A stretch of 63,953 nucleotides of DNA, the filler included, from Chrysochromulina tobinii (taxonomy: Eukaryota): the NCBI GenBank assembly GCA_001275005.1. It is 6 parts of 6 records of this genome, joined end to end, with 100 filler letters (N's around TTAATTAATTAA, not from the genome) between each part and the next. Parts side by side here need not be neighbours in the genome. Positions count along the whole stretch, not along the records: positions 56,118 to 62,015 come from JWZX01001353.1; 5 more parts are not named here. One strand, given 5' to 3'. The notes under the pieces are model-generated. The model was not told the DNA's origin. It did not search any database and saw nothing but the letters and a program-made list of their open reading frames with translations. Made by a program: the position numbers and the translations under genes. This document shows, piece by piece, positions 35,201 through 63,804 of this stretch; position 1 is the first letter of the stretch, and each line of letters begins with the position of its first letter.

Positions 35201-37605
35201 TCGAGGCGACGCTCCTCGACCCGACTGTCGTCGGCGCCACTCCCATTTGGCGCTACCCGACCGATTACCTGCCGCCGCTGCTGCTGCTCGTCGCTCAGCT
35301 GCTCCTCGTCATCTTCCTGCTCTCGGCGCTCATTGCGACGCTCGCGGGACGGTACGCCGCCCTCGCCGCCGCCGGCGAAGAGGCATGGAGCCTCGGCCGG
35401 CTCCGATTCGTGCGCGAGTACAAGGACGAGCGCGACGCACTCCCGCCGCCGCTCAACGCCTTCGTCCTCTTCTTCCATGATCTGCCCCAATGGAGCGTCA
35501 AGGCGGCCGGGGGCGGGTACGGCCGATCACGCGTCGTTCCGGGCACCAAGTCGGACCGGATCGGCTCGCAGCCGCGCCCGGTGCATGGGCTCAAGCTCAA
35601 GTGCACCTTGCCACACGCCACCATCGACGCGCTCCAGCACCTTGCACGCGACTGCCGCGACCGCGCCGCCGCAGGAGCCTCCTCGGCCTTGCTGGTCGCT
35701 CGCGACGCCTTCGCCTCCGCCTCCGCCGTTCCCGCCTCCTCCTCCTCCGCCTCCTCCACCGCCGCCTTCTCGATGGCAACTCTGCAGATCGCGTGCCTCG
35801 CTGGGCGTCTCGAGCACCTCGAGGCCGAGTACAAGCAGAACGAACGGCTGCTTCGAGCAGTGCTTGGCTCGGAGCCCGAGGAGTTGCTCGCATTGCGGGG
35901 CGGCGCCGATCCCGAGCGGCAGGCGACACGACATGCCCTGCACGCACTGCACCAAGCCTCATCGGCCAGACTGCCTGCGCCGCCGTCGAAGCGGACCGTT
36001 GGGCCCCAAAGCAGCGTGGCGCGCATGCCCACGCTGCAGGTTGGCCCCGCCAAGCCCGCGCCCACGCAGGTCGTCTATGGGTCGTCCCTCATGCCGGTGC
36101 ACCGCGTCGGACCGCGACTGCCCCCCGCCATCTCGTCGGAGCCGCCGAAGGACGCGGGGGCGCAGCCGCCGACGGCTGACGAGCAGCTCGGTCATCTGAT
36201 CACACCCGAGATCTACCGTGCGTATTGCCTGTACGGCGACAAGTCGTTGAGCGGCATCTCGGTCGAGGACGGCGGCGAGCAACTGCGCGCCGCGGTGGCG
36301 CACGTGGTGCCGCGCCTCAAGATGGGCGCCGCCGCCGAGGGGTTGCTGCAGCGCTGCGTGTACGCCGGCCGAGAGAGCCAAATGCGCGTCGGTCTCCACG
36401 CCCTTGGCAAGCTCATTCGCGATCTGAGTGCGCAGAACGCCCGGGGCGACGCCCAGGGCGATGGGGCTGGCGGCAGCAGCAGCAGCAACTCTGCGAGCGG
36501 CGGGCGTTCCAAGACGGCGCTGCCCGTGCCTGAGCTTGGGCCCGAGGCGACTCTGCGTGCTCAGACGGTCTTCCGGCGGCACGAGCGCGAAGGGTCGGGC
36601 ACCCTCGACGCATCGGACTTGCGCCACGCGCTCCTCGAGCTGGGACTGCCCGCGACGTTTGGGCAGATTGCGATCATCATCCAGCGGTACGAGCGCAACG
36701 CTAAGGGGCGCATCGACGCTGACGAATTCCTCGAGCTCACGCGCGAGCTCTACCTGTTCCACGAGCTCGCGCGCCGTGCCGAGCGCTCCTTTCACGCGCA
36801 CGACCGTGATGCCGACGGCATCCTCGACGTGGCCGAGGTCAAGCGCGCGCTGCTCGAGCTCGACCTTGAGGTGAGCACGAGCGCCCACGTGCTCAATGCG
36901 CTGCACCGGTATGAGACCCTCGAGCGCGACGGCAAGCTGGACCTGCGGGAGTTCCTTGTGCTCGTGCGTGACCTGTACAACTTCCAGCGGCTCGTCCTCC
37001 GGGCAGAGCGCTGCTTCCAGCTCCACGACGCGAACGCCGACGGCACTCTCGACGCTCTGGAGCTGCAGGCTGCTTTACTTCAGCTCGGGATCGACTCCAA
37101 CGCCGCGCGCGCGCGCTACGGCGATGGCGACCTCAAACTCGGCCAGCGCGAGTACCTCGAGCTCGTGCGAGATCTGCACCACTTTCGCGCGGCGACGCTG
37201 CCCACGCCCACCGACGACGTCTCTCGCACCTTTGCCCGCTTCGACCGCGACCTGGGCGGCCGCATCAACGTGCTCGAGCTGCGCGTCGCGCTCACGGAGT
37301 TGGGGCTCACAGTCGACACAGAAGAGGCGCTCCGCGTGCTCCGGCGCTTGGATGCCAACCGGAGCGGCCAGCTCGAGCTGGCAGACTTCCGTAACCTCGT
37401 CGGCACCCTCCGGAGCTACCAGCAGGCGACCCTTTCGAGCCCTGCATCGAGCCCATCCGAGGCCGTCGCGGCTGCGCTTGCGCGCGCGGTGGCGGCGGGA
37501 GACGTAAGTCTAAGTGGCGCGGCGGCGGGGGAGGAGGGCGCGACGACCGACGAGCCTGCGCCCAAGGGCGAGGGTGCCGCGGAGGACGCGCCCACTGAGG
37601 CCTGA
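32290..37605 (+). CDS. TRPM-like cation channel (SLOG/MHR N-terminus, TM region, TRP-box-like segment) with about 8 C-terminal EF-hands
   Basis: EWRLQQPGALICIEGG, AWVIGG, LGVAPW, SHLLL, LVLGGG..TL and PVVVLPSSGFAAAD (SLOG). LLIWAVL...LARALW (MHR4). LLSALIA..AW..R....EY..R..LPPPLN (S6/TRP helix). EF loops such as DRDADGILDVAE and DANRSGQLELAD. Confidence 0.88.
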   Translation: MPSTINIVKNHGVLRFNSRDAPSHWAVLDPDAEMHRVQRLLFDEWRLQQPGALICIEGGAGIHECCVLPAHEELALAHGLVSAARISNAWVIGGALDEGATQLVGRVLRSSADVVSLGVAPWTSVAQREQVAELADRRIFTYDALRLPDDADDYDGVPASTGGGQPLSDGASHLLLTEGGSPEKSQPAHAKAFRAALEAYLSSQTPSLSTDTAAEALESASRLPPACCPRLMLVLGGGLATLNAVLGALKAGWPVVVLPSSGFAAADIFEMCTGASKMAQGTQHAPLPRALSDMVQRPDEAYRKDGPGLLRSIAQLARTVRIGPHRQRALRFFRPGGGADATGLSEMLLHSLLGAVGKPLEALATALDWRHAPTLGWLLRQPGVAVDAPSLGAALERALLLKHVPSVAAMLQAHAPMHLVRLDALCDDERFKRAVATTAGAWYMQPSESSRMRQDGELDLSRSRSRADEQSRPALCPGSAWGFALLRAVLEETQEEYGSLLRMRWRAALVAEADGTMEPSGCDGQGARLLPSSLELLIWAVLCGEPSLARALWERSEDPLRTAILASVVARSVARSAGAATFSFAVAQGLARDAATYESWAISLLEHATDAEAHVLLLSTDAEYLGQQRSALELASDTRKACCRALCTHPKVAETLEKLADGFIAPVTASVLRQPAGMPPGCIPSPAATELQRLARPAITPADVRIWCETIDAASALRLGGVARALDLYADAQPPSAFGALVHPARVPKVKHAVHMLSSLAYLLLLGLALCALPTANDPERPAMALAAGGARVPDPHNLGYSEMVVWAWTATLLLEQLKHAMRVGFDAYERKGTSAALLSYLDDGAHLREALCHLVLLLAAALRIGVRLDVLNVDAMLLRWVQTLYALVVLLATTRFVGELQCSSRAVGVYACTLQQMLYEVATWLLVVALLLAATGVALTVLLPGPSGHGHVWDEPGILPLLSLLGAFDLEATLLDPTVVGATPIWRYPTDYLPPLLLLVAQLLLVIFLLSALIATLAGRYAALAAAGEEAWSLGRLRFVREYKDERDALPPPLNAFVLFFHDLPQWSVKAAGGGYGRSRVVPGTKSDRIGSQPRPVHGLKLKCTLPHATIDALQHLARDCRDRAAAGASSALLVARDAFASASAVPASSSSASSTAAFSMATLQIACLAGRLEHLEAEYKQNERLLRAVLGSEPEELLALRGGADPERQATRHALHALHQASSARLPAPPSKRTVGPQSSVARMPTLQVGPAKPAPTQVVYGSSLMPVHRVGPRLPPAISSEPPKDAGAQPPTADEQLGHLITPEIYRAYCLYGDKSLSGISVEDGGEQLRAAVAHVVPRLKMGAAAEGLLQRCVYAGRESQMRVGLHALGKLIRDLSAQNARGDAQGDGAGGSSSSNSASGGRSKTALPVPELGPEATLRAQTVFRRHEREGSGTLDASDLRHALLELGLPATFGQIAIIIQRYERNAKGRIDADEFLELTRELYLFHELARRAERSFHAHDRDADGILDVAEVKRALLELDLEVSTSAHVLNALHRYETLERDGKLDLREFLVLVRDLYNFQRLVLRAERCFQLHDANADGTLDALELQAALLQLGIDSNAARARYGDGDLKLGQREYLELVRDLHHFRAATLPTPTDDVSRTFARFDRDLGGRINVLELRVALTELGLTVDTEEALRVLRRLDANRSGQLELADFRNLVGTLRSYQQATLSSPASSPSEAVAAALARAVAAGDVSLSGAAAGEEGATTDEPAPKGEGAAEDAPTEA

Positions 37606-47052: not shown

Positions 47053-50013
47053 TCATGCGTCCAACAATGAAGGGTCCAGGTCATCGGGCTCGGGCCTCGG
47101 TGGAGTTGGTGGAGGTATGCTCAGCTGCAATGACAGCCCTGCCAGTGCTGGGTGACTTGGCGGCTTTTGCGCAGCCGGCTTCGCCGCACCATCGGTCGTG
47201 CGCGCGGCCGAGGGCTCAGGGGTCAGCTCAGGGGAGGCATCGAAGTCGCTTGAAGAGCGGCGTGAGGAAGGAGAGTTGCCTTTGACTACGCCTAGAAGAG
47301 ACCCCGCGAACGGACTGCGGTCGTCGGAGCAAAACGTGCGTTCCGAGGGGGAGCCTCGGGATCTGTCGGCGGGGAAGGCAGCGTCGAGCAGTTCACTCGT
47401 CGACAACCGTTTCCACGAGTCGAGCAGTGTAGCGTCGAACATCTCGGGAGGCACCTTCACCTTCTGAGTCACCCCACCATGCTGCTTGATCAGCGCGTCG
47501 TCGTCCCACTCCTCTTCCAGCGGCGGTTGTTTCTCGTCAGGCAACTTTGCGAACTTTTTCTGCCTGGCACTCTCGATAGCGATATCTTCGGGCACGTCAG
47601 GGATGATGGTCAGCACGCAGTACTGCGTGAGGAGCAGCAGGTGCTCGAGCACGACCAGGAAGAGGACCTTGTTAGACTCGTTGACCTCGATGAGCCCCAG
47701 GAAGTGGAAGGGCAGTATGCGCTTCAGCGTCGTGTCGGTGATGCCCGCCAGCCCGAGGTTTGTCAGCACGCCAAGCGCCGCCAGCATTCGCAGCACTGTC
47801 TGCCAAGCGCCGATGTCCTCGGCGCCCATGTACGCTGGCCGGCGTGTGTTGCACACCATCTTGTACGCATCCGTTCGAAGCTCAAAGTAGAACGAGAGCC
47901 AGAGCAGCGCCGAGGCGAGTGGGAAGGCGGGCGCGAAGAGCACCACGTAGCCAAGCTGCAGCAGGATGTTAGAGTACTCGGAGAAGATTCCCTCGAAGGG
48001 CTCGAGCTTCGCCTGCCCCTCGTAGTACGTCATCTTGGGAAGCTCATACTCCGTCATCTGCGCGCCTGTGCTATCCGCGTGGGCTGAGGCCTGCTGGACG
48101 GTGGACACGCCAAGAAAGAAGCGCCCGATGAAGAGCAGCCGGCCGCACGTCGTCTGCACACTCTTGGTGTACATTTCGTCTCCACTCTCTTGCTCCACTC
48201 TCTTGGTGTACATGGCGTACTCCTCATCGGCCTGCCTCAGCCGCGCACTCATCCATGGCGTGATGAACTCCAAGACCTTACCGACCACACTCGCTGAGAT
48301 GACGACCGAGGTCATGTAGAGCGACAGCTCGTTCATGCAGTACGGATTGAGGCCGCCATGCTGTGCCTCGATTTGCTCCTCGCCCGCATCAAAGTGCCGC
48401 TTGTCGTGGCAATACTCCGGGATGCCCGTCGCCCACGACAGCAAGTCGATCTCATTCGCCTTGACAAACGCAATGTAGTAGAGCGCCATGTACGAGTTGA
48501 TGAATTGAAAGAACATGGTCTTGACGATGAGCGCATCGTCGAAGCCGGACTGCGTGCGGTGATTCTCCCACTCGGTCAAGTGCTCCGCCAATCTCGCGTA
48601 CAGCATGTTGGTCACTGAGATGAACATGCCGTTGAGTGCGCCGCCTACAACAGAGCCGAGCGTCACGCCGTAGCTGGGGACGGTGAGCTCAGAGTCGTCG
48701 CTCGCGAAGAGCACATAAAAGGAGACCATGACCGACGACTTGTAGGCGAGGATCCCGCCTGTCGCCACGATGACGGCCAGCAGAAAGGGCATCACGAGCA
48801 AGTATGACGTGATCTCGCGTGACCGCCGCTCCGTGTGCAGAAACTTTTTCATGAGCGGCACCTTTTCGGCATGCGGCTCGTTGTCGTCCACGGCGACCCA
48901 GTAGCCTTCGTCTGAGTAGAAGCCGCGCTCCATGTCACCGTCGAATTCGTGCCTCGGCCGCTCTGTCTCCCTAAAGTCGGACACATTCCAGTGCACCGCA
49001 TGCACCGCCTCGGTGCGCCTCCACATCTTGCAGAAGTAGGTGATCCAGACGAGGATCTGGAAGGAGTAGAAGGGCGTGAACGGGTTGTCGTTGGAGCCCT
49101 CAAACCAGACGAGCGAGACGATGAAGAGGAGCACGCCCACGACGGCAGGGTAGGCGAGCGCGTTCGTGAGCTCCTCGACGAAGGCGTAGTAAATCGCAAT
49201 CCGCTCGCCGTAGTAATCGCGGATCTTGTCAAGCGGCTGCGCAACCCTGAGCGTGAAAGGCGCCTTAACCCAGATGCGTTCGAGCTCCTCCAGACTGCCC
49301 TCGATCTCGTGCACAGGCACGATTTGTGTGAGAACCTTTGTCTCGAGCAGGTCTTCAAGGTTGAGGCCGCATCCACCCTCGTACCGGGGCAGCTCGATAA
49401 GCGCCTGCAAGAGCCGGATGCGCTCGAGCGAGCTGAAAAAGGACGTGGAGCTGTACGGCTCGAATCGCTCCTTCTCTGTTACCGAGAAATCCGTGTACCC
49501 CTGCAAGCGGCCCTGCGCGTCCGGCTTGAGCCGCTTCTCCATCGTCAGCTGCTCGGCCGTCTTCTCGAGGAGCTTGTCGGGAGCGGAAAGCTTGAGCAGT
49601 ACCTCGTCTTCATCACGAGAGATGTCGATGACGACCTCGATCCCAATGGACCGTGCTCGTGCGACTATAACGTCGCGCCACTTCGCCGTGTTGCCCGCCA
49701 TCTGCTCCAGATGCTCAAAGGACGAATAGATGGATATATCCAACAATCTTTTGCTCTTCATTTTGGCTCTGACCTTCTCAACGTCTCCATCGTTCTCATC
49801 TTTCGGAAAGATGAAGACGAGGTCAAAATATGGCTGCCCGGTGGTAGGGGGTGCCGTCGGTGTATGCTCTTCCTCGAGAGTGGCATATTCTAAAGAATCG
49901 GAAAGCTTGTCGGAAAGCTTGAGAATCGGTCGTGATAATTGACTCGTGAACAGCGCGGGCGTCGGCCTCGCGGGCGCCTTCGCGTCCGAGAGCGAGACAG
50001 TAGCGCTTGGCAT
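47053..50013 (-). CDS. Anoctamin/TMEM16 Ca2+-activated chloride channel or scramblase
   Basis: FSSLERIRL, QPLDKIRDYYGERIAIYYAF, LTEWENHRT, FQFINSY..LYYIAF, LQLGYVVLFAPAFPLA, ELRTDAYK, DIGAW and EH...IPDVP motifs. Confidence 0.95.
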   Translation of the reverse strand: MPSATVSLSDAKAPARPTPALFTSQLSRPILKLSDKLSDSLEYATLEEEHTPTAPPTTGQPYFDLVFIFPKDENDGDVEKVRAKMKSKRLLDISIYSSFEHLEQMAGNTAKWRDVIVARARSIGIEVVIDISRDEDEVLLKLSAPDKLLEKTAEQLTMEKRLKPDAQGRLQGYTDFSVTEKERFEPYSSTSFFSSLERIRLLQALIELPRYEGGCGLNLEDLLETKVLTQIVPVHEIEGSLEELERIWVKAPFTLRVAQPLDKIRDYYGERIAIYYAFVEELTNALAYPAVVGVLLFIVSLVWFEGSNDNPFTPFYSFQILVWITYFCKMWRRTEAVHAVHWNVSDFRETERPRHEFDGDMERGFYSDEGYWVAVDDNEPHAEKVPLMKKFLHTERRSREITSYLLVMPFLLAVIVATGGILAYKSSVMVSFYVLFASDDSELTVPSYGVTLGSVVGGALNGMFISVTNMLYARLAEHLTEWENHRTQSGFDDALIVKTMFFQFINSYMALYYIAFVKANEIDLLSWATGIPEYCHDKRHFDAGEEQIEAQHGGLNPYCMNELSLYMTSVVISASVVGKVLEFITPWMSARLRQADEEYAMYTKRVEQESGDEMYTKSVQTTCGRLLFIGRFFLGVSTVQQASAHADSTGAQMTEYELPKMTYYEGQAKLEPFEGIFSEYSNILLQLGYVVLFAPAFPLASALLWLSFYFELRTDAYKMVCNTRRPAYMGAEDIGAWQTVLRMLAALGVLTNLGLAGITDTTLKRILPFHFLGLIEVNESNKVLFLVVLEHLLLLTQYCVLTIIPDVPEDIAIESARQKKFAKLPDEKQPPLEEEWDDDALIKQHGGVTQKVKVPPEMFDATLLDSWKRLSTSELLDAAFPADRSRGSPSERTFCSDDRSPFAGSLLGVVKGNSPSSRRSSSDFDASPELTPEPSAARTTDGAAKPAAQKPPSHPALAGLSLQLSIPPPTPPRPEPDDLDPSLLDA

Positions 50014-50543
50014 GGATGATTTTGGGGAAAAAGGTCCGTCGCTCGAAACTGAAAATCCATTTAGGAAGGTCGGAGGTACCAACCCGGAGGGACATGGATG
50101 GTTTGGGGGGGGGCTTTGGGAGGACGCTCACTTTAGTCGAGGCCGGCGGAGTTGGTCGCCTAGCGCGACCGGCATCCCGGGCTCCCACTTAGTGAACATA
50201 CGAGGCGGCGGATATGTATAATTTTTGGAAAAACACGGGGGGAAAAAGGTCCGTCGCTCGAAACTGAAAATCCAGGTAGGTGTGAACTGAGTCGCTCGGA
50301 TACTAGTAAGTTGCGCGATATCGCACGCGATCTCGCAGCGCGGCCCGCGTGCGAGATTAGAGCGCGACTCGCAGGGCGGCCCACCGCAGCGCGACCCGCG
50401 GGTTCCCGTCCGTGACGCACTCTCCCGACGCGTCTCAGTTTAGTTAAGAGACAAGACTACACTTGACTTGACTTGGCTGGACTTACTCTTGTACTTCCGC
50501 CAAAAACACCCTATTTCCCGAAACTCGAAGGAACATAAACCAC

Positions 50544-50793: not shown

Positions 50794-51615
50794 TGAACGT
50801 GTTCAAACAAAATCACGCAAAATGAGCGCTTCGAGGCGAGGCCGAGGGAAGGTGATGCCGCGTCGTGCGCTCGTCGCTCCATCCTCCAAGTGGAGTAAGC
50901 CTCAACTCGCCGCTCGCCGGCACGCCGGGCGCGTTGCGGCCTGCTCCTTTTGGCCGGCGGTGCCCGCCATGTCGAGGGCGGGGGGAGGTGGACGGCGGGG
51001 TGCGTTCGTCGGAGCAATCTGCCCTCTGTGGGGTGTCTGAAGAAGGTAGACTCCAGCCAGGCTGTGAAAGCATGTGTGAATGTATATGTGCATGTCACGC
51101 GGGAGAAGACACGCGAACCCAACGTCTATGGTCCCATAATTGTCTAATTCCCCACAGCATTTCCCCACAGGTGTACGCCCACCAAGACCTCCAAGAGAGA
51201 CACGGGAGAAGCCATCCTACGGGAGGTACGGGTAATTACCATCCTAACCGTCCCATCGATGTGAGTCTTTGTAACCTCGGGAACACGGCGTACGGGTACT
51301 TAGCAATCGCTCAGTAAATGAACGACCCTGCCAAAGGCGTTTTCGGAAGGAAGGATCGCAAAAACCCAAAAATCGTTTCGTCCGTCCGTCCACCCGTGTT
51401 CGGTAAGTGTCAACCTAGTGTTTCCCTTTTTTAGTACACAGATTTTCGAAAGAGGCGTCCCGTGACTTTATCTCGACACTCCCGGGCGAAACCGATCGAA
51501 AAAGTGAGGATACGTCTCGCACGCTGGCTCGCTTCTCGGGCCTGCTGTTCGGGTCAGGGTGACCTTTCGTTCAGCACAATTAAGGTCTTCCGCCAGCTAA
51601 CGCCAAGAGGCTTGA

Positions 51616-54600
51616 TGCCTCCGACCAGTGACGGCACAAAAGCCATTGATTGCCGCGGTGCTGGCACAAAGGCCATGACTTGCCACACAGAGCGGAGCTC
51701 CGCTGAAATGCTGGAAGCTGGTTGTATGGCGTCATCTTTGCCTCCTGCATTCTTTCGCCAGGGGAGAAGCTCACACGAAGGGGAGCATTCAGCAGCTGGA
51801 GCCGCTTTGTCGTCAACTGGAGGCACTCTACGATTGTCGGCCGCTGCCGGATTGTGTGTGCCGGCTGTAGCATGTCCGCCTCCTAAGGGCACGAGCGTGG
51901 CTAAGACATCTTCGTCGTCTCCGCCTGTTGCGAAGGGCACGGCTGCTGGAGGCGCTTCACGAGTGGGGGCCCGCACGCCCATTGGCGCGGGAGCGGCCGG
52001 AGCTGTAGGCGCGCTTGGAGCGGTTGCAGCGGTTGCATCGATTCCGCCCGACGATGACTCTGAGGAGGAAAAGGAAGATAGCGACGATGAGCAGGATGCC
52101 ACCTGGTTAGCCATCATCCCCTTCATGATCGCGATGAGCTATGAGCTTTTGTTTGAGGCAATAGACTCTGGTGGTATCCAGATCACAATCATGTTCCTCA
52201 TGCCAATCTTACTCGCTATCAAGGCTATGGTCGCTGATGCGTACCAACGTCTTCGCATTGGATTTGTCGCGCCGCCGCCGCCGACGCCGCCGCTTCCGGG
52301 AGCGTATCCTTTGCCTCCTCCGCCTCCCTCGCTCCCACCGTCGCCAGCGCCGCCGCCTGGCCTCATGCCGACCATCATGCATTTTCTCTATCTGCATGCC
52401 GAGGCCACCCCCGTTTATTACTTCATCTGCGACTTTGGCATTGCTGCGCTCATTGGCACCTTCTTCCTCTTCCTGCAGGACATACAAAACTTTTTTGCAA
52501 AGCGCAAGGCGGCCGAGAAAATGCGCAAGCAGCAGGAAGAGAAGGCATTGAAAAAGCGTAAAGCCCGAGAAAAGGCGCGAAGAGAAGCAGCCGAAGCTCA
52601 CCCGACGGACCCGACGGCCTATCAACCGCTCGCCGATGATGATGAGCCAGCTGAGGATGTGGACGCCGCTCAGGAGGAAGCACCCAATGTCGAGGCGCTG
52701 TTGAGGGAGCTAGTGCGCGTCACAGATCAGTCCGAGGAGCTGGAGATCAAAACGCGCGTCAACCGTAAGTCAGCTTCGGAGGCTGCAATGGCAGCGAAAG
52801 AGCAGCTCGCAAAGTTGCTGGAACGACGCGAGGAGCTCAAAGTTCTCCTTGGCATGGGTGGCCCCAACATGATGAAGAAGCCCAAAGAGGACAAGAACAA
52901 GGAGCCATCAATAATCGTCAAGGTTATGAAGAGCACAGCTATGCAGGTCCTGCAGAACGCCGCGAACGGAACCATGGCCGTCGTACTCTACTTTGCCGAC
53001 CTGATCTCAGACATTCAGGTGGTCCTGATGCTCTGGAGAACCGAGAACTTTAGTTTCGCCCTAATTTCTATGACCATTCTCGTCGCGCAGTTCGTCGTCG
53101 TCTACGTGCGCGTGTTACCGTACCTGCTCGCCAACTTTGGGCCGCAGAGTTGCCTCTACAGGCTCTTCCTCGTCCTCGGCTTCCCTTGGGGGTGCCTGAT
53201 GCTCGATTGCCTCATGTTTCTCGAGCCCTTTGGGTTGCTCTCGGTGCTGCCCTTCCCAGAGTGGTTGCGCCAATTTGTGCCCGCTTACAAGGCAACGCGC
53301 ATCATCGCGGAGGTCGCCATCGAGAGCGTGCCGCAGTGCCTTCTGCAGGCGTACATCTACATCGTGATCATTCACGGGCTCAAAGATGGCACCGCGTCGC
53401 CGCAGGAGCTTGCCATGGTCCCCTACGCCTCGCTGCTGCCAAAGTCTATTCTGATCTCGACGCTCGCGACGCTGAAGACGTGGATCGAGCTAGTAAGTGA
53501 GGCTCGGCAAGCGGGCTTAAGAGTTGTCGATAAGGCCATCCAGCTCTGGAATGTGGGGGCGGGCCTACCGCTCGACGCGCTGCAAAAGGGCGCGATCAGC
53601 ACCTTCACGTGCACGTACAAGCTCATGTCCGTCGAGATCCCGCCGCTGCTCGACGCGCTCGAGAAGAATAATAGTCTGGTGTACCTCGACCTCTCGCTGA
53701 GTGGCATCTCGTGGACGGGTGCCGACGCCACTGGGTACCGCCTGATTAAAGAAATCGCCAAGTCGGAGTCTGCGCTTGGGGGTCTCCAAACCTTCATCAT
53801 CTCGCCGCAGAGCAAATTCAAGATTCCGATGTTCGAGCTGCGTGGACCGACACAGATTGCGCTCGCAGCACTCCGCCGGGTCCCCCTACTCACCCCGAAC
53901 GGCCCCTGGCGGGAGGATATATTTTTCATAGCCGACATCCTACGCACAAACACGGACATTGCCGTGGTCGAGAAGGCCGAGAAGGCCGCTGGCGACGTTG
54001 TCATGAAGATGCGCACGAATGCCAAGCAAGGAAAGCTCAAGAAGGATGCGTGGGAGGAGCAGCTCACCGACATCATGTGCATCGGTAACACGCGCCGTGG
54101 CCACATACAAACATTGCTTATGGCCGATTGCTTGCGCGACGTGGGCTTCAAGGCGAGAGAACTGTTGACGACGGGCTTCACCCTGGTCGAGCTGCGCGAG
54201 GGCGACTACACCGCCGAAGAGATGCGCGTGACTGGCATCAAGGCGGCGGATGCGGCGAGCGCGGGCTACACGGCAGGCGAGCTCAAGAAGGGTGGCTACA
54301 CGGCCGCAGCACTAAAGAGCTCGGGCTCATTCACAGCGGCACAGCTCAAGGCTGGAGGTTTTGTTGCCAAGCAGCTCAAGGCGGTGGGCTATCTGCCCGG
54401 GGAGCTCCGCGACAATGGCTTCACCGCCGGCGAGCTTCGTGAGGGCTCCTTTGTTGCCAAGGAGCTGAAGCCCTTCTTCACGTGCCAAGAGCTGCGGATC
54501 GCCGGCTTCTCCGCCAAGCTCATGAGAGCTGTGAACTACTCGCTTGCCGAGCTCAAGGAAGGCGAGTACACGGCAACGGACCTTCGCGACGCCAACTTCA

Positions 54601-56017
54601 CGGCCTCCGAGATGAAGGCCAGCGGCTTCAACGCCTCGCAGCTCAAGGTGGCCGGGTATGGAGCGCCCGAGATGCGTCTCGCGGGCTTCAGGGCTGTACA
54701 AATGAAGGAGGCGGGGTACTCGGCCAAGAAGCTCAAGATGGCGCAATACAAAGCCTCCGAGATGGACGACACGGGATGGTCCGTCGAAGTGCTCAAGAAT
54801 GCAGGCTACCTTGCCGACGAGCTTCGCTCCGCAGGGCGTACCGCCGGCGAGCTGCTCGAGGTCGGCTTTAATCTGCAGGAGCTCAAGGGTGCCGGCTACT
54901 CGACGCCGGAGCTCCAGGAGGTGGGGTTCACCCCCGAGGAGCTTCGTGCCGCCGGCACGTCCCTTGCCGACCTCACGTCGGCAGGCGCCTCGGTCGCCGA
55001 GCTCAAGAATGCCGGAATCTCTGCGATTGGCCTCAAGGCGGAGGGCGTGTCGCTCATGGAGATGAAGAAGGTGGGCTACACTGTAAAGGAGCTCAAGGCG
55101 GCGGGCTTCACATCCTTCGAGCTCCGCGAGGCCCACTTCCTCGCATACGAGCTCATCGCGGTCGGTTTCACAGCCAAGGATCTCAAGACCGGTGGATACA
55201 ACACCCAAGAGGAGCTCAAGGCGGCCGACATGACCGTTCGCGACCTCAAGGAAGGCGGCTTCAATGCACGCGAGCTGAAGCGGGCTGGGTACTCCGTGAG
55301 TGAGCTCATCGTGGGCGGCGAGTTCAACTTGAAGGAGCTCCAGGACGGTGGCTACTCCACCTTGGACCTCAAGGCGGCGGATATCACGGCGGCCGAAATG
55401 CGAGCGGGCGGCTTCTCCGCAAAGGCCCTCATTTCGGCGGGCTTTGATGCGTACGACCTGACGGGCGCTGGCTTCCTGACTAAGGAGCTGTTCCTCAAGG
55501 GCACAGGCTTTTCCGTGGAGGAGCTCAAGGAAGCGGGGCACACAGCGAAGCAACTCTACGGAGCCGGCGTGAGCGTGTTGCTGCTCAAGGAAGCTGGCTT
55601 CCTTCTTGATGTGTTCTGTGGCCTCGGATGCTCGGCGTCAGACTTGAGGAACGTCGGGTACTCTGCCAAGGAGCTCGAGATGGTCGGGTTCACCGCGCAA
55701 GAGCTCGTCAAGGGCGGGTTCAACGCCAAGGAGCTCAGGGCCGCGGGGTTTGAAGTGCAGGAGCTGAGAACTGCGGGTATGTCGGCGGGCGAGTTGAAAG
55801 AGGGTGGATTCACCGCAGAGGCGCTCAAGGCGGTTGGTGCAGTCGCCAAGGAGCTCAAGGCCGGCGGGTTCAATGCAAAGGAGCTCAAGAATGCCTCCTT
55901 CAACCCGTTGGAGCTCAAAGGAGCCGGGTACAACGCGGCTGAGCTCAAAGACGCCGGGTTCACCGGGCAGGAGCTTGGTCTCGCAGGGTTTGGGGCGCAG
56001 TCCCTGAAGCAGGCGGG
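51616..56017 (+). CDS. Multi-pass membrane protein with an XK-related-like domain and a long C-terminal 10-aa repeat array, 3' truncated
   Basis: LYFADLISDIQVV...IAEVAIESVPQCLLQAY matches the XK ESxPQ motif; (ELKxAGFxAx)n from ~54130. Start uncertain. Confidence 0.75.
54130..56017 (+). repeat. Degenerate decapeptide repeat (ELKxAG[FY]TAx), roughly 60 units
   Basis: Clear 10-residue periodicity in the translation, with diverged DNA. Confidence 0.9.
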
Positions 56018-56117: not shown

Positions 56118-57186
56118 CGGGGCGCCGCCGCCCAGGCCGCCGCCGCCGAGCCCGCCGCCGAGCCCGCCGCCGAGGCCGCCGAGCCCGCCGCCGAGCCCGC
56201 CAGCGAACGCGTACACGCGCATGTTCATCGCAGCCGCCTGGGCCACGCCAAAGTTCTTGTTGAAGTTCTCCTCGCGGTTCTGCAGCTCGAGCTTGAAGTA
56301 CTTCATCCCTTCGTACGTGCGGCGGCGCACAATCTCGTCCTTCTCGCGCAGCTGCCGGAGGAGCTGTTCGATAGTCGCGAGGTCCTCGGCGCGTGGCTCG
56401 CGCGCATCGAGCCGCGCCTGCAGCCCGCGCAGTTGCTCGCGCAGCTGGCCAACCTGCTCCTGCAGCAGCGCCTGCGCCTTCTGGAACTCGGCCGTCATCG
56501 CTCGCGTCTCGTTCAACTGCTCCGCGAGCAACTGGTCGAGCGTCTCCTTGGCCTGCTGCCGCTCACGCCCGAGCTCGAGGGCAGCCCGCTCCTGCTGCGC
56601 GAGCATCTCGTGCTGCAGCGCCGCCTGCGCTTGCTCGGCCGCCTTGCGCACGGCGGCCGTCTCCTCGGCCGCGCGTGCGAGCGCCTCGCGCAGCGCCGAC
56701 GCCTCGTCGCTCCCCGCCTCGAGCAGAGAGATGAGCCGGCGGATCTCGGAGCGTGCCGCCTCGAGCTCGGCCGCGCTCGCCTCCTGCGCCGCGTGCAGCT
56801 CGTCCGCCGCGCGTGCCATCGCATCGTGCAGGGCGCGCATGTGCTGCGAGATGAGCTCCGCCTCGCGGCTGGCAAGCTGCTGCGATGCCGCCTGCTTGAG
56901 CTCCGCCTCCTGCTGCGCCTTCGCCTGGGCTGCCTGCATCTTGAGCAGCTCCCACTTGGAGGCACCCTCGGCACGCGCCTGCTCGATCGCGAGCTGCGCC
57001 GCGCGCCGCTCTGCCTCCGCCTGGGCCAGGGAGCGCTCGTGAGCGGCGCGTGCGGCCTCTGCGCTGGCTGCCTCGCGCGCGCGCCGCTTTGCCTCCGCCT
57101 GCGCCGCTGCCCTCGCGCGCTCCGCCTCACCGCTCAGCTGCTCGAGCTGGCCTTGGAGCAGGTGCTCGGCTTGCGCACGCTTGCCT
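56118..57186 (-). CDS. FAM184-like coiled-coil protein (internal/3' exon, truncated at contig end)
   Basis: Long coiled coil; REPRAEDL and KYFKLELQNREENFNKNF resemble the FAM184 C-terminal motif. The frame opens after the CACAG acceptor at 57187. Confidence 0.65.
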
Positions 57187-57435
57187 CTGTGCTATTGTGC
57201 TATTGACTTCTCAACAGGTGCCCGCACCGGGACTCCGGGAGAGAAGCCGCGAGTGGCCCAGCGGCGCACCACTCCCTCGAGAGGTCGATGTCCATTCGGA
57301 GGGCACAATGCGTGCGGACCTCGCCCGCCGCCACCGTCAAGCGCTGCCGCCGTGCAGGGACGTGCACTCTGGCCCCTTTGTGCTCCCGCGCCTACCATCC
57401 CACCATCGAGCGACGCGTGAAAGTCCACAAAGGAC

Positions 57436-57660
57436 AAGTCAAGTCAAGTCAAGTCAAGTCTCTGGCACTTTTGTGCTCGGGGCGCGCCCAAGCGTGCGCC
57501 AGCCACGTCCACCACCGTGGCCATATAAATGTATGTGCATGATGGTCACTGTCGAAACGTGAATAGTTTGAATTGTGAGAACAGGGGCCGGGGCGCCAGG
57601 CTGCGTCCCCTGAGTTTCTTTTGTTCAAGTTCAAGTTCAAGTTCAAGTTCATTCAAGTCC
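57436..57660 (+). repeat. (CAAGT)n and (CAAGTT)n short tandem repeats in intergenic DNA
   Basis: aagtcaagtcaagtcaagtc at ~57437-57460 and caagttcaagttcaagtt at ~57626-57650. Similar CAAGT runs occur at ~27706, ~39706 and ~50460. Confidence 0.85.
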
Positions 57661-57931
57661 TTGAACTTGAATTTGCCGTTTTGTGTTGAAAACAGAATTA
57701 TGAAAAGGTGTATTTTTTTCATCCCGGTAATGGGGATCTGAGGAGGTTCTCGCCCCCCCCCTAAGACCTTTGGGGACTGCTTTTCCATATTTTGCTGCAT
57801 ACCGAAACTTTATTCGCCTTTTTTTGCTGATTGCTAGATGAGAACGCGAGCTGCGCAGCTCAAGTCGGCTTCTCGGCACCTTCGCATCAAACATAGGAAT
57901 CCTCGGCGAAACGGGCGACGTTCCGTGGAGA

Positions 57932-60900
57932 ATGCCGGTCCTCGAAGTCGTACCTCCGTCAAGCACGCGCGCCTCACAAGATGGCAACGATCGCCAAGGA
58001 TTCTGGCGCCGCGGCCTGCGACCCCGTGGACCTGCCTTGAAGCTAGAGGACATCGAGTCGGCCAAACCGAGCCGCCAGTCCCTCTGGATTCACCCCAATG
58101 AGCTTCTAGCCTCACGCATCTGCACCTTCCTGAGCCACCTGCTGCTCAGCGTTCCGTCGGCGTTCATGATCATTGTGGCGATCTGCGCTATCTACTATCT
58201 GCAAGACTATCACGACTTTGCCATCATCTTGTTCTTCGTGATCGGGAACGCTGCTCTCTGCGTCTTTGAAGAGGAAGTCAATGCGATCCACGTGATGAGC
58301 GAGTCTGAGAGCAGCACCGGCATCTACAACACCTCCGTCACCCCAATGAGCGAGGTCATCGAGAAGGCCGCAGATCTGCTCCCCCACCAGCCGATCATCG
58401 CCAATTTCGTCCACCACAACCCTTGGGAACGGTTCCAGCACATGCCCTTCTTCGACGCGCTCGAGCACGTGTCGAGGCTCTCGGCGTACATGTCGCCTGC
58501 GGAGCGCCTCTATTCGCTTACTCTCGCCGACCCGCGCCTGTGCGCCAACGAGGCCGTCGCGGAGCTCGCCGCAATCTTCCTCGATCTCGGAGCGGCCAAG
58601 TGGGCGGCGCCCCATCGCCAGCACGGCTTCGTCTACTTCTTCGCGTCCCTCGAGTGTTGTGGCCTTGCGCCGTGGCGAGGACTAGCGCGCGCCTACGCGC
58701 GTGGTATCCTCGCCGAAGGCCCTCAGTCAGCCGTGTCCTCGCCGCGGGCTTCGGGCGACTGCCCGTCACCGCCGACTCTGGCTGAGAGACTCATCCAAGA
58801 GAACCTCGACGCGATGGGGGTGCCAGTGGAAGAGCGCATCTCCGCCCTGCGCGCGATCTTGCTCGATCTGCCGGGCTGGGCGGGAATGTTCCTCCGCATG
58901 GAGCACGTCCCATGCGAGGCGCCCGAAGGTGTGCCCGTCCGCCTCGCCGACTTTGCTGCGGTCTACACCACCCTGCAGCGCGCGAGCCTCGAGTGGAGCG
59001 CGCGCCTCGCTGGCCAGGGATGCTATCCGATGAGCACCTTCTTGAAAAACGCGCCAAAGACGCGCCGGACCGATCGGTCCATCTTCGGAGCGGGCGCGGC
59101 GCTCAGTACAACTTGGCGCGACTTGGATCGTACACTCAGCAACCCGTCGGCGGTCGCCGCAAGCGAGCAGATCGCCCGCGCCTGGCCTCTACCCCTGACA
59201 CGCGAGACGCACGCCGGCCTCGAGAAGCTCGAGGATGAGTACGAGAGGATCATGCTCAACACCATCAACAACAACACTCTGGCGTCGCCCGCGAGCGCGC
59301 ATGCCGCGCGGTACCCTACAGATGGAACCACGCCGCCGCCCAAGGAGCGTCCGTCGCTGATGTTCTACACGTGCTTCGACGAGCGTGAGTGCTCATTCCG
59401 CCGCTACATCGAGGCAAGCGCGACTTCGGCGAACGAGATCGAGACCTTCGGCGTGCCCGGCTTCTTCCATCTCGCCATCCGCCACTACAAGGCGTGCCCG
59501 GGCTCCAAGGAGTGGATCTCCGCCCCCGAGGGCTCCGTGCCCCCCGCGGGCCACAAGATGGTCGAGGTCGAGAAGAACCCAAAGCACACTGCGCGCGCTC
59601 GGCTCGTCGCTCGCTTCGGCTGGCTCTTCGAAACCTGGTCGTTGAACCCCTTCACCTCGCTGGTCTGCGGCGCAAGCCTCAGCGTCTGCAACCTTGTACA
59701 CCTGTGGATGGTATCCTGCCTGCCGACGGCGCGGCGCGAGCTCGCGGACATGTGCATGGAATGCTTCGTGCCCCCATCCGAAACGGACTTTAGCATCCCG
59801 TACACTCCGGAAGAGGCGGCTGCGCGCCTCAAGCAGATGTTTCATAACATTGGTGTTCGCCAGCACTTTGCTCCGCTTGTCACCGCGCTGGCCCACGGCT
59901 CTCGCTCCGTCAACAACCCCTTCGACTCTGCGCACAACTGCGGCGCGTGTGGAGGGCGCGAGGGCGGCGCGAACGCGAGGATGTTTGCGCGCTGCGCAAA
60001 CGACCCCGCGATCCGGCAGGCACTCGATGAAAAATTCGGCATTGTCATTCCCAGTGACACGTGGTTTGTAGGAGGCTATCACGACACGACCTCCGACCTC
60101 GTCGAGCTGTATGATTTGGAGGCCGTGCCTGAGACTCATAAGCAGGCTCTGGCGCGCGCCATCGCCATCCTCGAAAACTCACGCTGCCAGAACGCCCTCG
60201 AGCGCTCCACCAAGTTTATCGGCATCGTAGGCTTCGGCACCGAGCAGATTTCGACCCCAGCGCAGGCGATCGCGCATGTGATGACGCGCTCCGTCGATAT
60301 CGGCCAGGCGCGGCCCGAGCTCGGCCATGCGACCAATGCGAGCATCGTCCTTGGTCGGAGAGTTCTCACGAAGGGCTGCTTCCTCGATCGTCGCCCCTTC
60401 CTCCCCTCGTACGACCCGTTCAACGACGATGACCGAGGATCCAATCTGGAGACCATCCTCGCCCCCGCCCTCATCGTCGCATCCGGCATCAACCTCGAGT
60501 ACCTCTTCTCCACCATCGGCGGGGGAGCGGGCACCAAAGCGCCCATGAACCTCGTTGGCCACTTCGGAGTGAGCCAAGGCTCAGCCGGCGACCTCCTCGT
60601 CGGTTTACCCACCCAAATGACGGAGTTCCACACACCGGTGCGCGCACTCTACGTGATCGACGCGCCCGTCTCACGCGTCGAGGAGGTCCTCAAACGGCGC
60701 AAAGAGCTCGCCAACCTCGTGTACAATGACTGGGTGCGCATGGTGATCAGAGACCCAGTTTCCAAGGACTTTTATCGGCAGGAAGGCGGCAGCTTCAAAC
60801 TGCTCTCGCCCGACGCGTACGACCTCCCTCCGGGTGCAGCCACCCATACTGTCTCGGGCTCAACCACCCACACGACCCAAACCGCCAAGTTGGTCTACCC

Positions 60901-62015
60901 GCCCACCACGGCTAAGGTCGAGCACGTCTCGCCAGCCCCTCAGATGAACTGGTACGGCAGGTTGGCCATCAAAGAGCTCGCGTACACGCTCCTCTGCATG
61001 GCGGGAGCCATCGTATCATGCGCCGGTCCGATGGGCATGACGTTCAAAGAAGCCCGCCCGCCAATGTTGGCGGCCGCTCCGGCCGTCTCGGCGTGCGCCA
61101 CCGCCATCACCCTGTGCGTCCTCGTCTTCTCTCACCGCTACTTGACGGGCGAGGCGATGTTTGGCCGAATGCAAACCCTGAAGACGATGATGCTCGTTGG
61201 CTTCAATCTGGTAGTCTCGGCATCGGATCTCCATGAGATGTCGCTCGGATGGGCGGTAATCGGCTTCGCGTCCACCTTCCTCATAGGCGCGTTCTCGGAT
61301 CGGCCGACTGCTCGAGATAACGCGACTTTCGCATTCCTCGTCTACTGTCTGTCGGACATCGGCCTTCTGCTCGCCGCCGCATTCGCTCTCCCGAACGCAT
61401 ACCCATCCTGGTATCCAACCCTCTCCGCGGGCGCAATGCAGGCGAAGCTCGACCATTATCCGGCAAACTCGATGGACATCTGCGCTGCCGGCCTTGTCAT
61501 CAGTGCCCTCATCAAATCGTCCCAATTCCCCGTGACCGGCCTCCTCATTCGGTCCATGGAAGGTTCCTCCCCCAACTCGGCCATGGGATACGCCGGGATC
61601 TCGTCGCACGTCGGTGTCGTACTGCTCTGCGGCACGCTCCCTCTCTGGTTCCCTCTCACCTGGGCACGCGCGCTGGTTGGCGCGGTTGGCGGCTTCACCG
61701 CCATCCAGTCGGCGTGTATTGCCCAAGTTCGCGCTGACCGGAAGGGTGGGCTCGCCGCTGCGACCGCTGGCACGATCGGCACCCTTTTCTGGATTCTCGC
61801 GGCCTCGGGCATTCCAGAGCTGGTCCTCGTCCTCTGCCTCTGCCATGCGGGGCTCAGAATCACACAAGTACTTGGCTGTTGCAATTGGCTCCTTGAGTGG
61901 GATCGGCTCGCAGACGCGCTCGGCCATCATGCCGTCGCACCGAGCCACGTGCCAAGTGTTGTGTATAAGCTCGGCTGGGCATTCAACCGTCTTCACACCG
62001 ACTTTAACATCCCCC
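57932..62015 (+). CDS. dabA-dabB: Fused DabA (DUF2309/MpsB, beta-CA-like) and DabB (NuoL/ND5-like, MpsA) inorganic carbon pump, 3' truncated
   Basis: DabA motifs: PHQPIIANFVHHNPW, LPGWAGMF, CFDERECSFRRYIE, ETFGVPGFF, HGSRSVNNPFDSAHNCGACGG..GGANAR, GIVIPSDTWFVGGYHDTT, RPELGHATNA, RRPFLPSYDP and GINLEYLFST. These are followed by many TM helices with ND5-type motifs: GW..IGFASTFLIG, KSSQFP...SMEGSSPNSA, DRKGGLA and CHAGLR. Confidence 0.92.
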
Positions 62016-62526: not shown

Positions 62527-63804
62527 ATGGTGACGCCTATCTTTGCCGTGGTCGACGTGCGCACTGCGGCCGAGCTTGTCAACTTCAGTTACCCGATGCC
62601 GGCCGTGTCCGCCGGCCTCAAGCGCATCCTTGACTCGCCCAATTGCCAGGCGGCTGCTCGCCTGCTGCCGGTGATCGCCAAGATCCACGGCTTGACCTCG
62701 CTTACGGTGATCGACATCTGCTACGTCGGTGGCGGCGTGCTGATGAGCGGCTACAAGACCATCGACAAGGTTCTCGAGGAGATGGCCGGTAAGAGCGTCG
62801 CCGACGGCACCACCAAGGGCCTCGACCACGACCTGCACTCGAACTTCACCAAGTGGCGGCAGTGCCTCATGATGCTGCACCGCGAGGCCACCGACGTCGA
62901 GAAGGAGGACCGCGAGGAGTTCGCCGCGCAGGTCAGCATCGAGGACAAGGTCAAGTGGTTCGCCGGTCAGTATCACTTCACGCCGGAGGCGAACACGTAC
63001 TGCTCGGGCGCGTATTCGAAGTGCCTCCTGAAGCAGGGGCTGACCTACGAGATTGACCAGCGCACTGACTATCGTCGCGCCAAGTCGGCTAGTGCTCGTC
63101 GCGGTGACCTGTTTGTCCCGGACAAGGGCAAGAAGACGGACGTCCCGGAGAAGGTCGTCATCGCGACCGGGCAGGATGTGTTCGACTGCCTCGTCCGCAA
63201 GTTCATGACCCTTCTGCTGCTCTTCGGCGACGCGGACATCATGTCGCACGGCTTCACTAACGGCTCGTATGGCGCCCTTGCTGGTACCATTCGCTGGATC
63301 ACCCTCGCGGATGTGTACAAGCTCAAGAAGGCCGCCGCCGGTCTGGCTAAGGTTACCCGCGCCAAGGCCGAGGAGCTCGTAGACTGGTTCGAGGAGAAGA
63401 TCTCGGTCGCGGTGAAGGCGCCCTTCCTGCGGACGCTTGCGTGCGCCCTCGGCGAGAACAGTGACGTCTTCGAGGCGCGCATCGACTCGCGCGTTGTGGC
63501 TGCAACGCCGCCGGCCACCAAGCGTGAGAAGCTCGACGTGGGGCCGCCTTCTGCGCCTTCGAAGAAGCAGAAGAAGGCTGCGGCCAAGGCGGCCAAGCTT
63601 GCCGCCGAGGCTCAGGCTGTCAAGAAGTCCGAGGGCAAGAAGGAGAAGGACGACGATAAGAAGGTCAAGGAGGGCCTCGAGCGCATGGACGGGGGCAATC
63701 CGGCCGGGCCGCCTTGCCGCAACTATGCCAAGGGCACGTGCGTCGGCAAGTGCCGCTTCTCGCACGAGGCTGTCGCTTCGCCCGAGGAGGATTCCGAGGA
63801 GTAG
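62527..63804 (+). CDS. Hypothetical protein with a Lys-rich tail and C-terminal CCCH zinc finger (possibly a gag-like retroelement ORF1)
   Basis: Intronless 425 aa with strong GC3 bias; C-x7-C-x3-C-x3-H (CRNYAKGTCVGKCRFSH). Confidence 0.6.
   Translation: MVTPIFAVVDVRTAAELVNFSYPMPAVSAGLKRILDSPNCQAAARLLPVIAKIHGLTSLTVIDICYVGGGVLMSGYKTIDKVLEEMAGKSVADGTTKGLDHDLHSNFTKWRQCLMMLHREATDVEKEDREEFAAQVSIEDKVKWFAGQYHFTPEANTYCSGAYSKCLLKQGLTYEIDQRTDYRRAKSASARRGDLFVPDKGKKTDVPEKVVIATGQDVFDCLVRKFMTLLLLFGDADIMSHGFTNGSYGALAGTIRWITLADVYKLKKAAAGLAKVTRAKAEELVDWFEEKISVAVKAPFLRTLACALGENSDVFEARIDSRVVAATPPATKREKLDVGPPSAPSKKQKKAAAKAAKLAAEAQAVKKSEGKKEKDDDKKVKEGLERMDGGNPAGPPCRNYAKGTCVGKCRFSHEAVASPEEDSEE

What the first reader, a model, noticed from the sequence alone, without database searches (positions are those of the whole stretch)
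57932..62015. Single-chain DabA-DabB (MpsBA) inorganic-carbon pump in an apparently eukaryotic algal genome
Seen in sequence: one uninterrupted frame carries a full DUF2309 domain (~58370-60800) followed by a NuoL/ND5-like multi-pass domain (~60975-62015, cut by the contig end). The putative Zn-site residues are intact: C481 and D483 (CFD, 59372-59380), H655 (59894) and C670 (59939). Their spacing matches, as I recall it, the C351/D353/H524/C539 site of Halothiobacillus DabA2. Established: DabA+DabB (MpsB+MpsA in Staphylococcus) form membrane-potential-coupled CO2/bicarbonate-concentrating pumps characterised in prokaryotes, usually as two genes. Eukaryotic context: the same contig has a FAM184-like coiled-coil exon opening at a splice acceptor, and CAAGT intergenic repeats shared with other contigs here; GC content resembles neighbouring genes. 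Inference: an alga (probably a haptophyte) acquired a DAB pump horizontally and fused it A-then-B. It would be a candidate component of a eukaryotic CO2-concentrating mechanism that I do not know to be characterised.
Basis: partly seen in the sequence, partly recalled or inferred. Interest (0 to 1): 0.95.

Follow-up and report, generated by a model that had tools for sequence, protein, structure and literature searches.

The report
Eukaryotic single-chain DAB carbon-pump family
A transcribed algal-type gene joins both halves of a bacterial CO2-capture machine into one protein and belongs to a family shared by distantly related protists, whose members are predicted to sit in mitochondria, plastids or (this copy) another cell membrane and likely turn CO2 into bicarbonate.

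Summary
Observation confirmed; interpretation partly supported. One stop-free 1361-codon frame carries DabA (PF10070, 499 bits) then a NuoL-like DabB half, with the zinc site intact. Independent assemblies and single RNA contigs span the junction, so it is neither chimeric nor bacterial. It is not one alga's private acquisition: 66 fused relatives form one clade that includes Paulinella, the ancyromonad Fabomonas and parasitic Amoebophrya; some have spliceosomal introns and eukaryote-only neighbours. The closest bacteria keep dabA then dabB as two genes (75 of 80 GTDB loci, 0 fused) and form a class distinct from DAB1/DAB2. The fusion dropped the first helix of DabB, which keeps DabA on the inner side. 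N-termini split by clade: mitochondrial-presequence-like (15 of 19), signal-plus-transit-like, or a two-helix anchor (this copy). Against a plain DAB pump: the essential TM8 His is Tyr, TM11 Lys is Arg, a coupling Trp is Leu, and the DAB-typical Leu is a beta-carbonic-anhydrase-like His. Best reading: a membrane-bound zinc carbonic anhydrase, probably proton-coupled (0.5); an uncoupled enzyme is the main rival (0.3). Ten literature searches found no eukaryotic DAB.

The parts
57932..62015 (+). Single-chain DabA-DabB ORF, 1361 residues here, cut by the contig end (full length about 1480)
57914..57931 (+). Short leader where RNA contigs begin, 8-18 bases before the ATG, while DNA contigs continue (weak hint for the start)
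58121..58267 (+). Two predicted membrane helices (residues 64-112) before DabA; no signal peptide or presequence by my hydrophobicity/charge rule
58541..60736 (+). DabA domain, best PF10070 stretch; beta-carbonic-anhydrase fold in the model
59372..59386 (+). C481, D483, R485: zinc ligand and Asp-Arg dyad (DabA2 C351, D353, R355)
59630..59632 (+). E567, conserved only in the eukaryotic clade (67 of 69), at the start of the membrane finger
59894..59941 (+). H655 and C670: zinc ligands (DabA2 H524, C539)
60320..60328 (+). L797 and H799 in place of DabA2 W656 and L658
60956..62015 (+). DabB/NuoL-like membrane half, starting at NuoL helix 2; keeps D1142, K1195, H1305; has A1108, Y1220, L1301, R1309 at NuoL E144, H254, H334, K342
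56118..57191 (-). Divergent coiled-coil neighbour frame, no Pfam match; context only
57435..57647 (.). Intergenic (CAAGT)5 and (TTCAAG)4 microsatellites; context only

Best explanation
The gene encodes a zinc-site DabA domain fused to a NuoL-like membrane half, and the protein likely works as a membrane-bound beta-carbonic anhydrase that is predicted to hydrate CO2 to bicarbonate in one direction by using proton flow through its membrane half. Shown: the fusion, its transcription, the zinc residues, the predicted folds, one eukaryotic clade derived from or sister to bacterial dabA-then-dabB operons, and loss of DabB helix 1. Inferred: (1) loss of helix 1 keeps DabA on the inner (negative) side; (2) the remaining D1142, K1195, Y1220, H1305 and R1309 form a changed proton path, already present in the bacterial A-then-B class; (3) loss of the E144 equivalent fits a stand-alone unit, as in DAB2; (4) location follows the N-terminus: mitochondrial matrix side in most members, where it would supply bicarbonate to carboxylases; plastid stroma in a signal-plus-transit group; and for this copy, anchored by two N-terminal helices, a plasma or endomembrane site with DabA in the cytosol, where it would trap incoming or respired CO2 for the alga's carbon supply.
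For: Zinc site, Asp-Arg dyad, H585/D590 equivalents and the interface Asn (N873 = DabA2 N734; my offset mapping to T. albus N901) are kept: C481, D483, R485, H655, H717, N873 in 69 of 69, C670 in 68 of 69. The membrane half is retained in the whole family, 64 of 66 relatives carry both Pfams, with D1142 66 of 67, K1195 66 of 67, H1305 65 of 67, R1309 65 of 67; a mere anchor would not need these buried charges. AlphaFold model of residues 137-1336: pLDDT 84.5, pTM 0.86; membrane part matches NuoL at Z 33, rmsd 4.2, 312 aligned; DabA core matches CsoSCA (Z 10.9) and Porphyridium beta-CA (Z 10.1) best of 48,161 chains. Both halves give the same tree shape. DAB1/DAB2 are proton-coupled vectorial enzymes (10.64898/2026.03.13.711513; PMC13684180).
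Against: The TM8 His whose loss abolishes activity in DAB1 and DAB2 (PMC13684180) is Tyr in 60 of 67; TM11 H334 is Leu/Met and K342 is Arg; DabA2 W656, whose mutation uncouples DAB2, is Leu in 68 of 69; L658 is His in 69 of 69, the position of the CsoSCA proton-shuttle His; DabA2 E444 has no aligned equivalent; T. albus D708 is Asn in 65 of 69. I found no assay of any member of the A-then-B class. Targeting rests on a crude rule set after I had seen the N-termini, and on automatic gene starts. No low-CO2 expression data.
Confidence: 0.5

Rival explanations
1. An uncoupled, membrane-anchored beta-carbonic anhydrase: the restored active-site His makes it freely reversible and the membrane half is a scaffold or a passive proton/CO2 conduit.
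For: His at the L658 position in 69 of 69, Leu at W656, Tyr at the essential TM8 His, and further loss of E144, H334 and the Q315 equivalent only in eukaryotes; long stem of the membrane half, 1.36 changes per column.
Against: Buried D1142, K1195, H1305, R1309 stay almost invariant; L658Q did not give free activity in DAB2 (10.64898/2026.03.13.711513); the His/Tyr/Arg set is shared with bacteria that keep E144 in 75 of 75 and often further antiporter subunits.
Confidence: 0.3
2. A differently coupled transporter: Na+-driven or bicarbonate-moving (as proposed for MpsAB), or one that exports the proton made by hydration (as proposed for NDH-1/Cup).
For: The axis residues differ as a set (Tyr, Arg) from all proton-pumping NuoL rows, 10 of 10, and DAB2-type rows, 14 of 14; MpsAB is argued to use Na+.
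Against: No positive evidence for Na+ sites was sought or found; the E144 equivalent typical of such antiporter subunits is lost in eukaryotes.
Confidence: 0.13
3. A recent, alga-specific transfer and fusion serving only the CO2-concentrating mechanism.
For: The window copy is sister (SH-aLRT 96) to a group with signal-plus-transit-like ends; patchy distribution allows eukaryote-to-eukaryote transfer.
Against: One fused clade holds Paulinella (2 species, sisters), Fabomonas and Amoebophrya on 1.6 and 2.4 Mb contigs; early-branching rows have mitochondrial-like ends.
Confidence: 0.05
4. Artefact: chimeric contig or bacterial contamination.
For: The window gene has no intron; the contig is short; the intergenic part has about half the depth in two DNA runs and other upstream versions exist.
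Against: L001-L003 repeat the neighbour-to-dabA layout at 99.4-99.9%; gene and neighbour have equal depth (86 and 88); RNA contigs of 3959, 4264 and 4860 bases cross the A-B junction; best bacterial proteins are far weaker (388 bits against 482-1253); 0 of 80 GTDB loci are fused.
Confidence: 0.02

Closest known systems
DAB2 of Halothiobacillus neapolitanus (DabA2/DabB2, PDB 9RD0) and DAB1 of Thermocrinis albus
   Same: PF10070 plus PF00361; Cys2His zinc site with Asp-Arg dyad; membrane finger; NuoL-like half with D185/K235 equivalents; no Glu at NuoL E144 (as DabB2 I151).
   Different: One chain, A before B, DabB helix 1 and hairpin missing; His for L658, Leu for W656, Glu for S356; Tyr for the essential TM8 His, Arg for TM11 Lys, no H334; eukaryotic, with targeting-like N-termini.
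Single-gene DAC of Acidimicrobium ferrooxidans and other bacterial fusions
   Same: Both halves in one natural polypeptide (PMC6689103, 10.1101/476713; atlas clusters of 1336-1395 aa).
   Different: The engineered Dab2 said to mirror it joins DabB before DabA; I did not inspect the A. ferrooxidans gene or the domain order of the atlas clusters. No fusion among the nearest bacterial loci.
Bacterial dabA-then-dabB class (Planctomycetota, Myxococcota, Bacteroidota, Verrucomicrobiota, Acidobacteriota, methanotrophs, Nitrosomonas)
   Same: Gene order, His at L658 (86 of 86), Tyr at TM8 (74 of 75), Arg at TM11 (72 of 75); joined to the eukaryotic clade with support 100 in the DabA and DabB trees.
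   Different: Two genes, often overlapping by 4 bases; keep helix 1, E144 and H334; 57 of 123 loci have further antiporter-like ORFs. No characterised member found.
MpsAB of Staphylococcus aureus
   Same: Same two Pfam families; serves bicarbonate supply in a heterotroph, a model for the non-photosynthetic hosts.
   Different: Two genes; proposed Na+/HCO3- symport; its sequence was not compared here.
CsoSCA and other beta-carbonic anhydrases; NDH-1/CupA CO2 uptake complexes
   Same: CsoSCA is the best fold match and has His at the position of H799 (PMC13684180); Cup complexes are the functional analogue for a thylakoid-bound form.
   Different: CsoSCA is soluble and reversible; Cup uses another fold and redox-driven NDH-1 (from the papers' introductions).

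Membership tests
DAB/DAC/MpsAB | PF10070 DabA domain over cut-off | tested here: met
   498.8 bits
DAB/DAC/MpsAB | PF00361 NuoL-like partner adjacent or fused | tested here: met
   59.4 bits; Z 33 to NuoL
DAB/DAC/MpsAB | Cys2His zinc site with Asp-Arg dyad | tested here: met
   (sequence; zinc binding itself not measured)
DAB/DAC/MpsAB | Beta-CA-like fold | tested here: met
   CsoSCA Z 10.9, rmsd 4.7, 255 aligned
DAB1/DAB2 (characterised type) | DW(xxx)RPEWGL motif with Leu in the active site | tested here: not met
   I790, L797, H799; His in 69 of 69
DAB1/DAB2 (characterised type) | TM8 His and TM11 His-His-Lys proton path | tested here: not met
   Y1220, L1301, H1305, R1309
DAB2 | Glu444 in the DabA finger | tested here: inconclusive
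   no Glu at the aligned place; a clade-specific E567 lies 12 residues earlier; the role of E444 is disputed (PMC13684180)
DAB1 | DabC third subunit | not testable with these tools
   no whole genome held
DAB/DAC/MpsAB | Membrane-potential-dependent inorganic carbon accumulation | not testable with these tools
   needs assay
Complex I NuoL/ND5 | Full-length subunit with E144, H254, K342 over NCBIfam cut-off | tested here: not met
   86 bits against cut-off 380; residues
Eukaryotic nuclear gene family | Introns, eukaryote-only neighbours, named eukaryotic proteomes | tested here: met
   GT-AG introns with both ends seen in 3 of 9 loci examined; neighbours in L009, L014, L037; names
Algal CO2-concentrating mechanism component | Low-CO2 induction and plastid or plasma-membrane location | not testable with these tools
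   only contigs were available

The most novel reading that the evidence does not exclude
Early eukaryotes took a bacterial dabA-dabB operon of an unstudied class, fused it by deleting one helix and sent it to the mitochondrial inner membrane as a stand-alone, proton-motive-force-driven CO2-to-bicarbonate pump; one subclade later retargeted it to the plastid and to the cell surface, giving haptophyte-type algae an energised CO2-capture step equivalent to cyanobacterial NDH-1/Cup.
Probability: 0.33. Interest if true: 0.93.

Novelty: new variant of a known kind. Interest (0 to 1): 0.84.

Why it matters
The DAB papers read here describe these systems in bacteria and archaea only. A eukaryotic family would be a candidate vectorial carbonic anhydrase for mitochondria and complex plastids, and a candidate for the energised CO2-uptake step in some algae. 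It is a natural single chain already fitted with organelle-type targeting, which bears on efforts to install bicarbonate accumulation in chloroplasts. Its natural substitutions fall on the residues that the 2026 structures and suppressor screen tie to coupling (TM8 His, W656, L658), so it is a ready test of how proton flow makes a carbonic anhydrase one-directional. It also flags a large bacterial A-then-B class for which I found no assay.

Tried and rejected
Viral origin: 45 pattern matches in viral contigs, none a relative. Naming the host: the neighbour's 8 homologues are unnamed; cluster look-ups gave no species. Search for shorter named eukaryotic pieces: 54 hits, none with a eukaryote name. 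Fold search against solved DAB chains: 9RD0 did not appear, whose copy may predate it, so the comparison with DAB2 is by sequence. Donor: in 401 genomes of a GcrA-bearing class (Alphaproteobacteria by that marker) 38 matched; of the 12 best loci 1 was A-then-B and it grouped with gammaproteobacterial rows; in 301 genomes of the phylum of a Sericytochromatia MAG 16 matched and the 8 inspected were not sister to eukaryotes. So neither a mitochondrial nor a plastid donor is supported; nested versus sister placement among A-then-B bacteria differs between trees. Paulinella proteomics supplements (PMC7729196, 6 files) held none of six identifiers; a second Paulinella paper was not held. Window against L004 gave 11 synonymous and 15 non-synonymous codon changes, too few and too close to judge selection. 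RNA gaps in the intergenic region are not used as proof beyond a control. Earlier scan notes: three look-ups empty. The second atlas call did not complete. No complex prediction was run, since halves of one chain would pass by likeness to known structures.
Full report
The window is six contigs joined by spacers; the finding lies on the contig 56118-62015. The frame 57932-62014 gives 1361 residues without a stop. It matches PF10070 at 498.8 bits and PF00361 at 59.4 bits, and DabA2 and DabB2 of PDB 9RD0 at E 2.3e-48 and 2.2e-9. It is not complex I ND5: the best NCBIfam NuoL score is 86 against a cut-off of 380.

The locus is real and transcribed. Three other assemblies repeat the stretch from the coiled-coil neighbour into the gene at 99.4-99.9% over 3899-4954 bases, and L004 supplies the missing end. 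In two DNA runs overlapping contigs tile from the neighbour to the start codon; gene and neighbour have similar depth (88 and 86 in X1) and the intergenic part about half, with other upstream versions present, which I read as alleles or copies. RNA contigs of 3959 (X14), 4264 (X15) and 4860 bases (X16) cross the DabA-DabB junction in one piece; the bin 57694-57890 has no RNA cover in X13 and X14, while DNA runs cover it. All are contigs, so level, strand and poly(A) are not shown. Other window genes are eukaryotic types (anoctamin, mitochondrial carrier, TRPM-like), and the ORF of the last contig is identical to a record held by NCBI, UniRef and EukProt. That the host is a haptophyte is my recollection from repeat style and gene expansions and comes from no call.

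The gene belongs to a family. Of 145 hits among 7995 scored candidates (120 listed), the top 66 score 482 bits or more, against 388 for the next; 64 of the 66 carry both Pfams; identity is 37-52% apart from P0002 at 95%. Named members are Paulinella chromatophora, P. micropora, Fabomonas tropica, Amoebophrya A25 and A120, plus one MMETSP and one EukProt record without species; the other 59 are unnamed. An unindexed search showed the same gap between about 30 top rows and the rest. Of 9 loci examined for frame breaks, L007, L032 and L038 show GT-AG introns with both ends, L006 a GT donor, and L049 CCCTAA-repeat insertions. Neighbours include a mitochondrial carrier (L009), a kinase with EF hands and a eukaryotic-type PheRS beta (L014), Rsa3, Ints3 and LIM-binding proteins (L037); 5 of 9 loci scanned gave any neighbour family.

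Origin. In 30 loci from a Pseudomonadota sample two classes separate: 14 B-then-A with the DAB2 motifs, 15 with His at L658 (12 with dabB seen downstream), 1 other. FastTree on the DabA core (170 rows; 7 rows without the motif left out) and on the membrane half (166 rows) each give one eukaryotic clade (support 100) joined to the A-then-B class. IQ-TREE on subsets (56 and 62 rows, quick mode) agrees (99 and 100) but leaves nested versus sister and the donor open. No AU test was run.

The fusion solves a topology problem. DabB2 has 15 helices and its C-terminus was joined to DabA2 in the engineered chain (10.64898/2026.03.13.711513), so its N-terminus would lie outside (inference). Bacterial A-then-B DabB have three hydrophobic segments before the end of helix 3 in 111 of 123 (2 have two, 10 lacked the motif); of 56 fused proteins scored (of 67), 37 have two, 17 one, 2 none, and none three. 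The model aligns to NuoL from residue 21-25 onward. Helix 1 and the outer hairpin were dropped.

Targeting. By a rule I set after seeing the N-termini (net charge at least +4, at most one acid in 30 residues, no hydrophobic core), 15 of 19 members with extensions outside the window's 26-row subclade look like mitochondrial presequences, against 0 of 17 inside it (Fisher p 7e-7, rows not independent). In a 12-row group, 3 of 8 pass a signal-peptide rule and two more are borderline; I read them as signal-plus-transit peptides from recalled motifs. The window copy and P0003 are sister to that group (96) and have N-terminal membrane helices instead. Gene starts are automatic for most rows; for the window, RNA contigs begin 8-18 bases before the ATG and L004 diverges right before it.

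Mechanism. The catalytic set is kept (C481, D483, R485, H655, H717 in 69 of 69; C670 68 of 69) and the core folds like CsoSCA. The coupling set is changed. With the bacterial A-then-B class it shares His for L658, non-Trp for W656 (Trp in 6 of 86), Tyr for the TM8 His and Arg for K342; only eukaryotes also lost E144, H334 and the Q315 equivalent, and gained E567, R1267 and R1270. In DAB1/DAB2 the TM8 His is essential, W656R/C uncouples, and the Leu sits where CsoSCA has a proton-shuttle His (PMC13684180); but L658Q gave no free activity (10.64898/2026.03.13.711513). D1142, K1195, H1305 and R1309 remain near-invariant. I therefore favour a coupled, directional enzyme with a changed path (0.5) over an uncoupled anchored one (0.3). 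It works like a DAB and belongs to the wider DAB/DAC family by domains and zinc site, but fails two defining motifs of the characterised DAB1/DAB2 type.

Literature. Ten full-text searches (listings and abstract starts only) showed no report of a eukaryotic DabA-DabB; subscription papers are mostly outside the library, and database annotations may already label single proteins. Read: 10.64898/2026.03.13.711513, parts 1-4 of 9; PMC13684180, passages and parts 1-4 of 7; passages only of 10.1101/476713, PMC8552792, PMC6689103, PMC10880623; supplement search only of PMC7729196. Supplements of the two bioRxiv papers were not seen; their trees and alignments may include the A-then-B class or eukaryotic rows.

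Interest 0.84.

Noticed in passing
L016-L160, L177-L195, L196, L208-L215: A widespread bacterial dabA-then-dabB class with His at L658, Tyr at TM8 and Arg at TM11; 57 of 123 loci have further antiporter-like ORFs (five confirmed as PF00361 in three loci), up to three extra in Nitrosomonas; in one Aquirufa locus a SulP gene follows. No characterised member found.
   Followed up: partly
L004:1-123 versus window 57809-57931: The same coding sequence has at least three different upstream sequences that diverge right at the ATG: alleles, copies or a rearranged promoter.
   Followed up: partly
L049:150-900: Insertions made of CCCTAA repeats with short duplicated exon ends interrupt a family member; telomere-like introns.
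   Followed up: no
P0063, P0067: Amoebophrya members are 1856 and 2228 residues, much longer than the rest; Amoebophrya is recalled to have a reduced mitochondrion and non-canonical introns, so gene models need checking.
   Followed up: no
window 51462-56017 (+): Membrane protein with a long decapeptide-repeat tail (PF25296, 591 bits).
   Followed up: no
window 32290-37605 (+) and 47053-50127 (-): TRPM/SLOG-like channel with EF hands, and an anoctamin.
   Followed up: no
window 62527-63804 (+): 425-residue ORF without a Pfam match, ending in a CCCH-like Cys/His pattern, with 26 near-identical cluster members; possibly from a repeated element.
   Followed up: partly
window 7000-8200: GCAATCAG-containing repeats (13 copies on the first contig).
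   Followed up: no
L173:700-4569: A bacterial DabA frame of 1290 residues with a long insertion and no dabB in the fetched locus.
   Followed up: no
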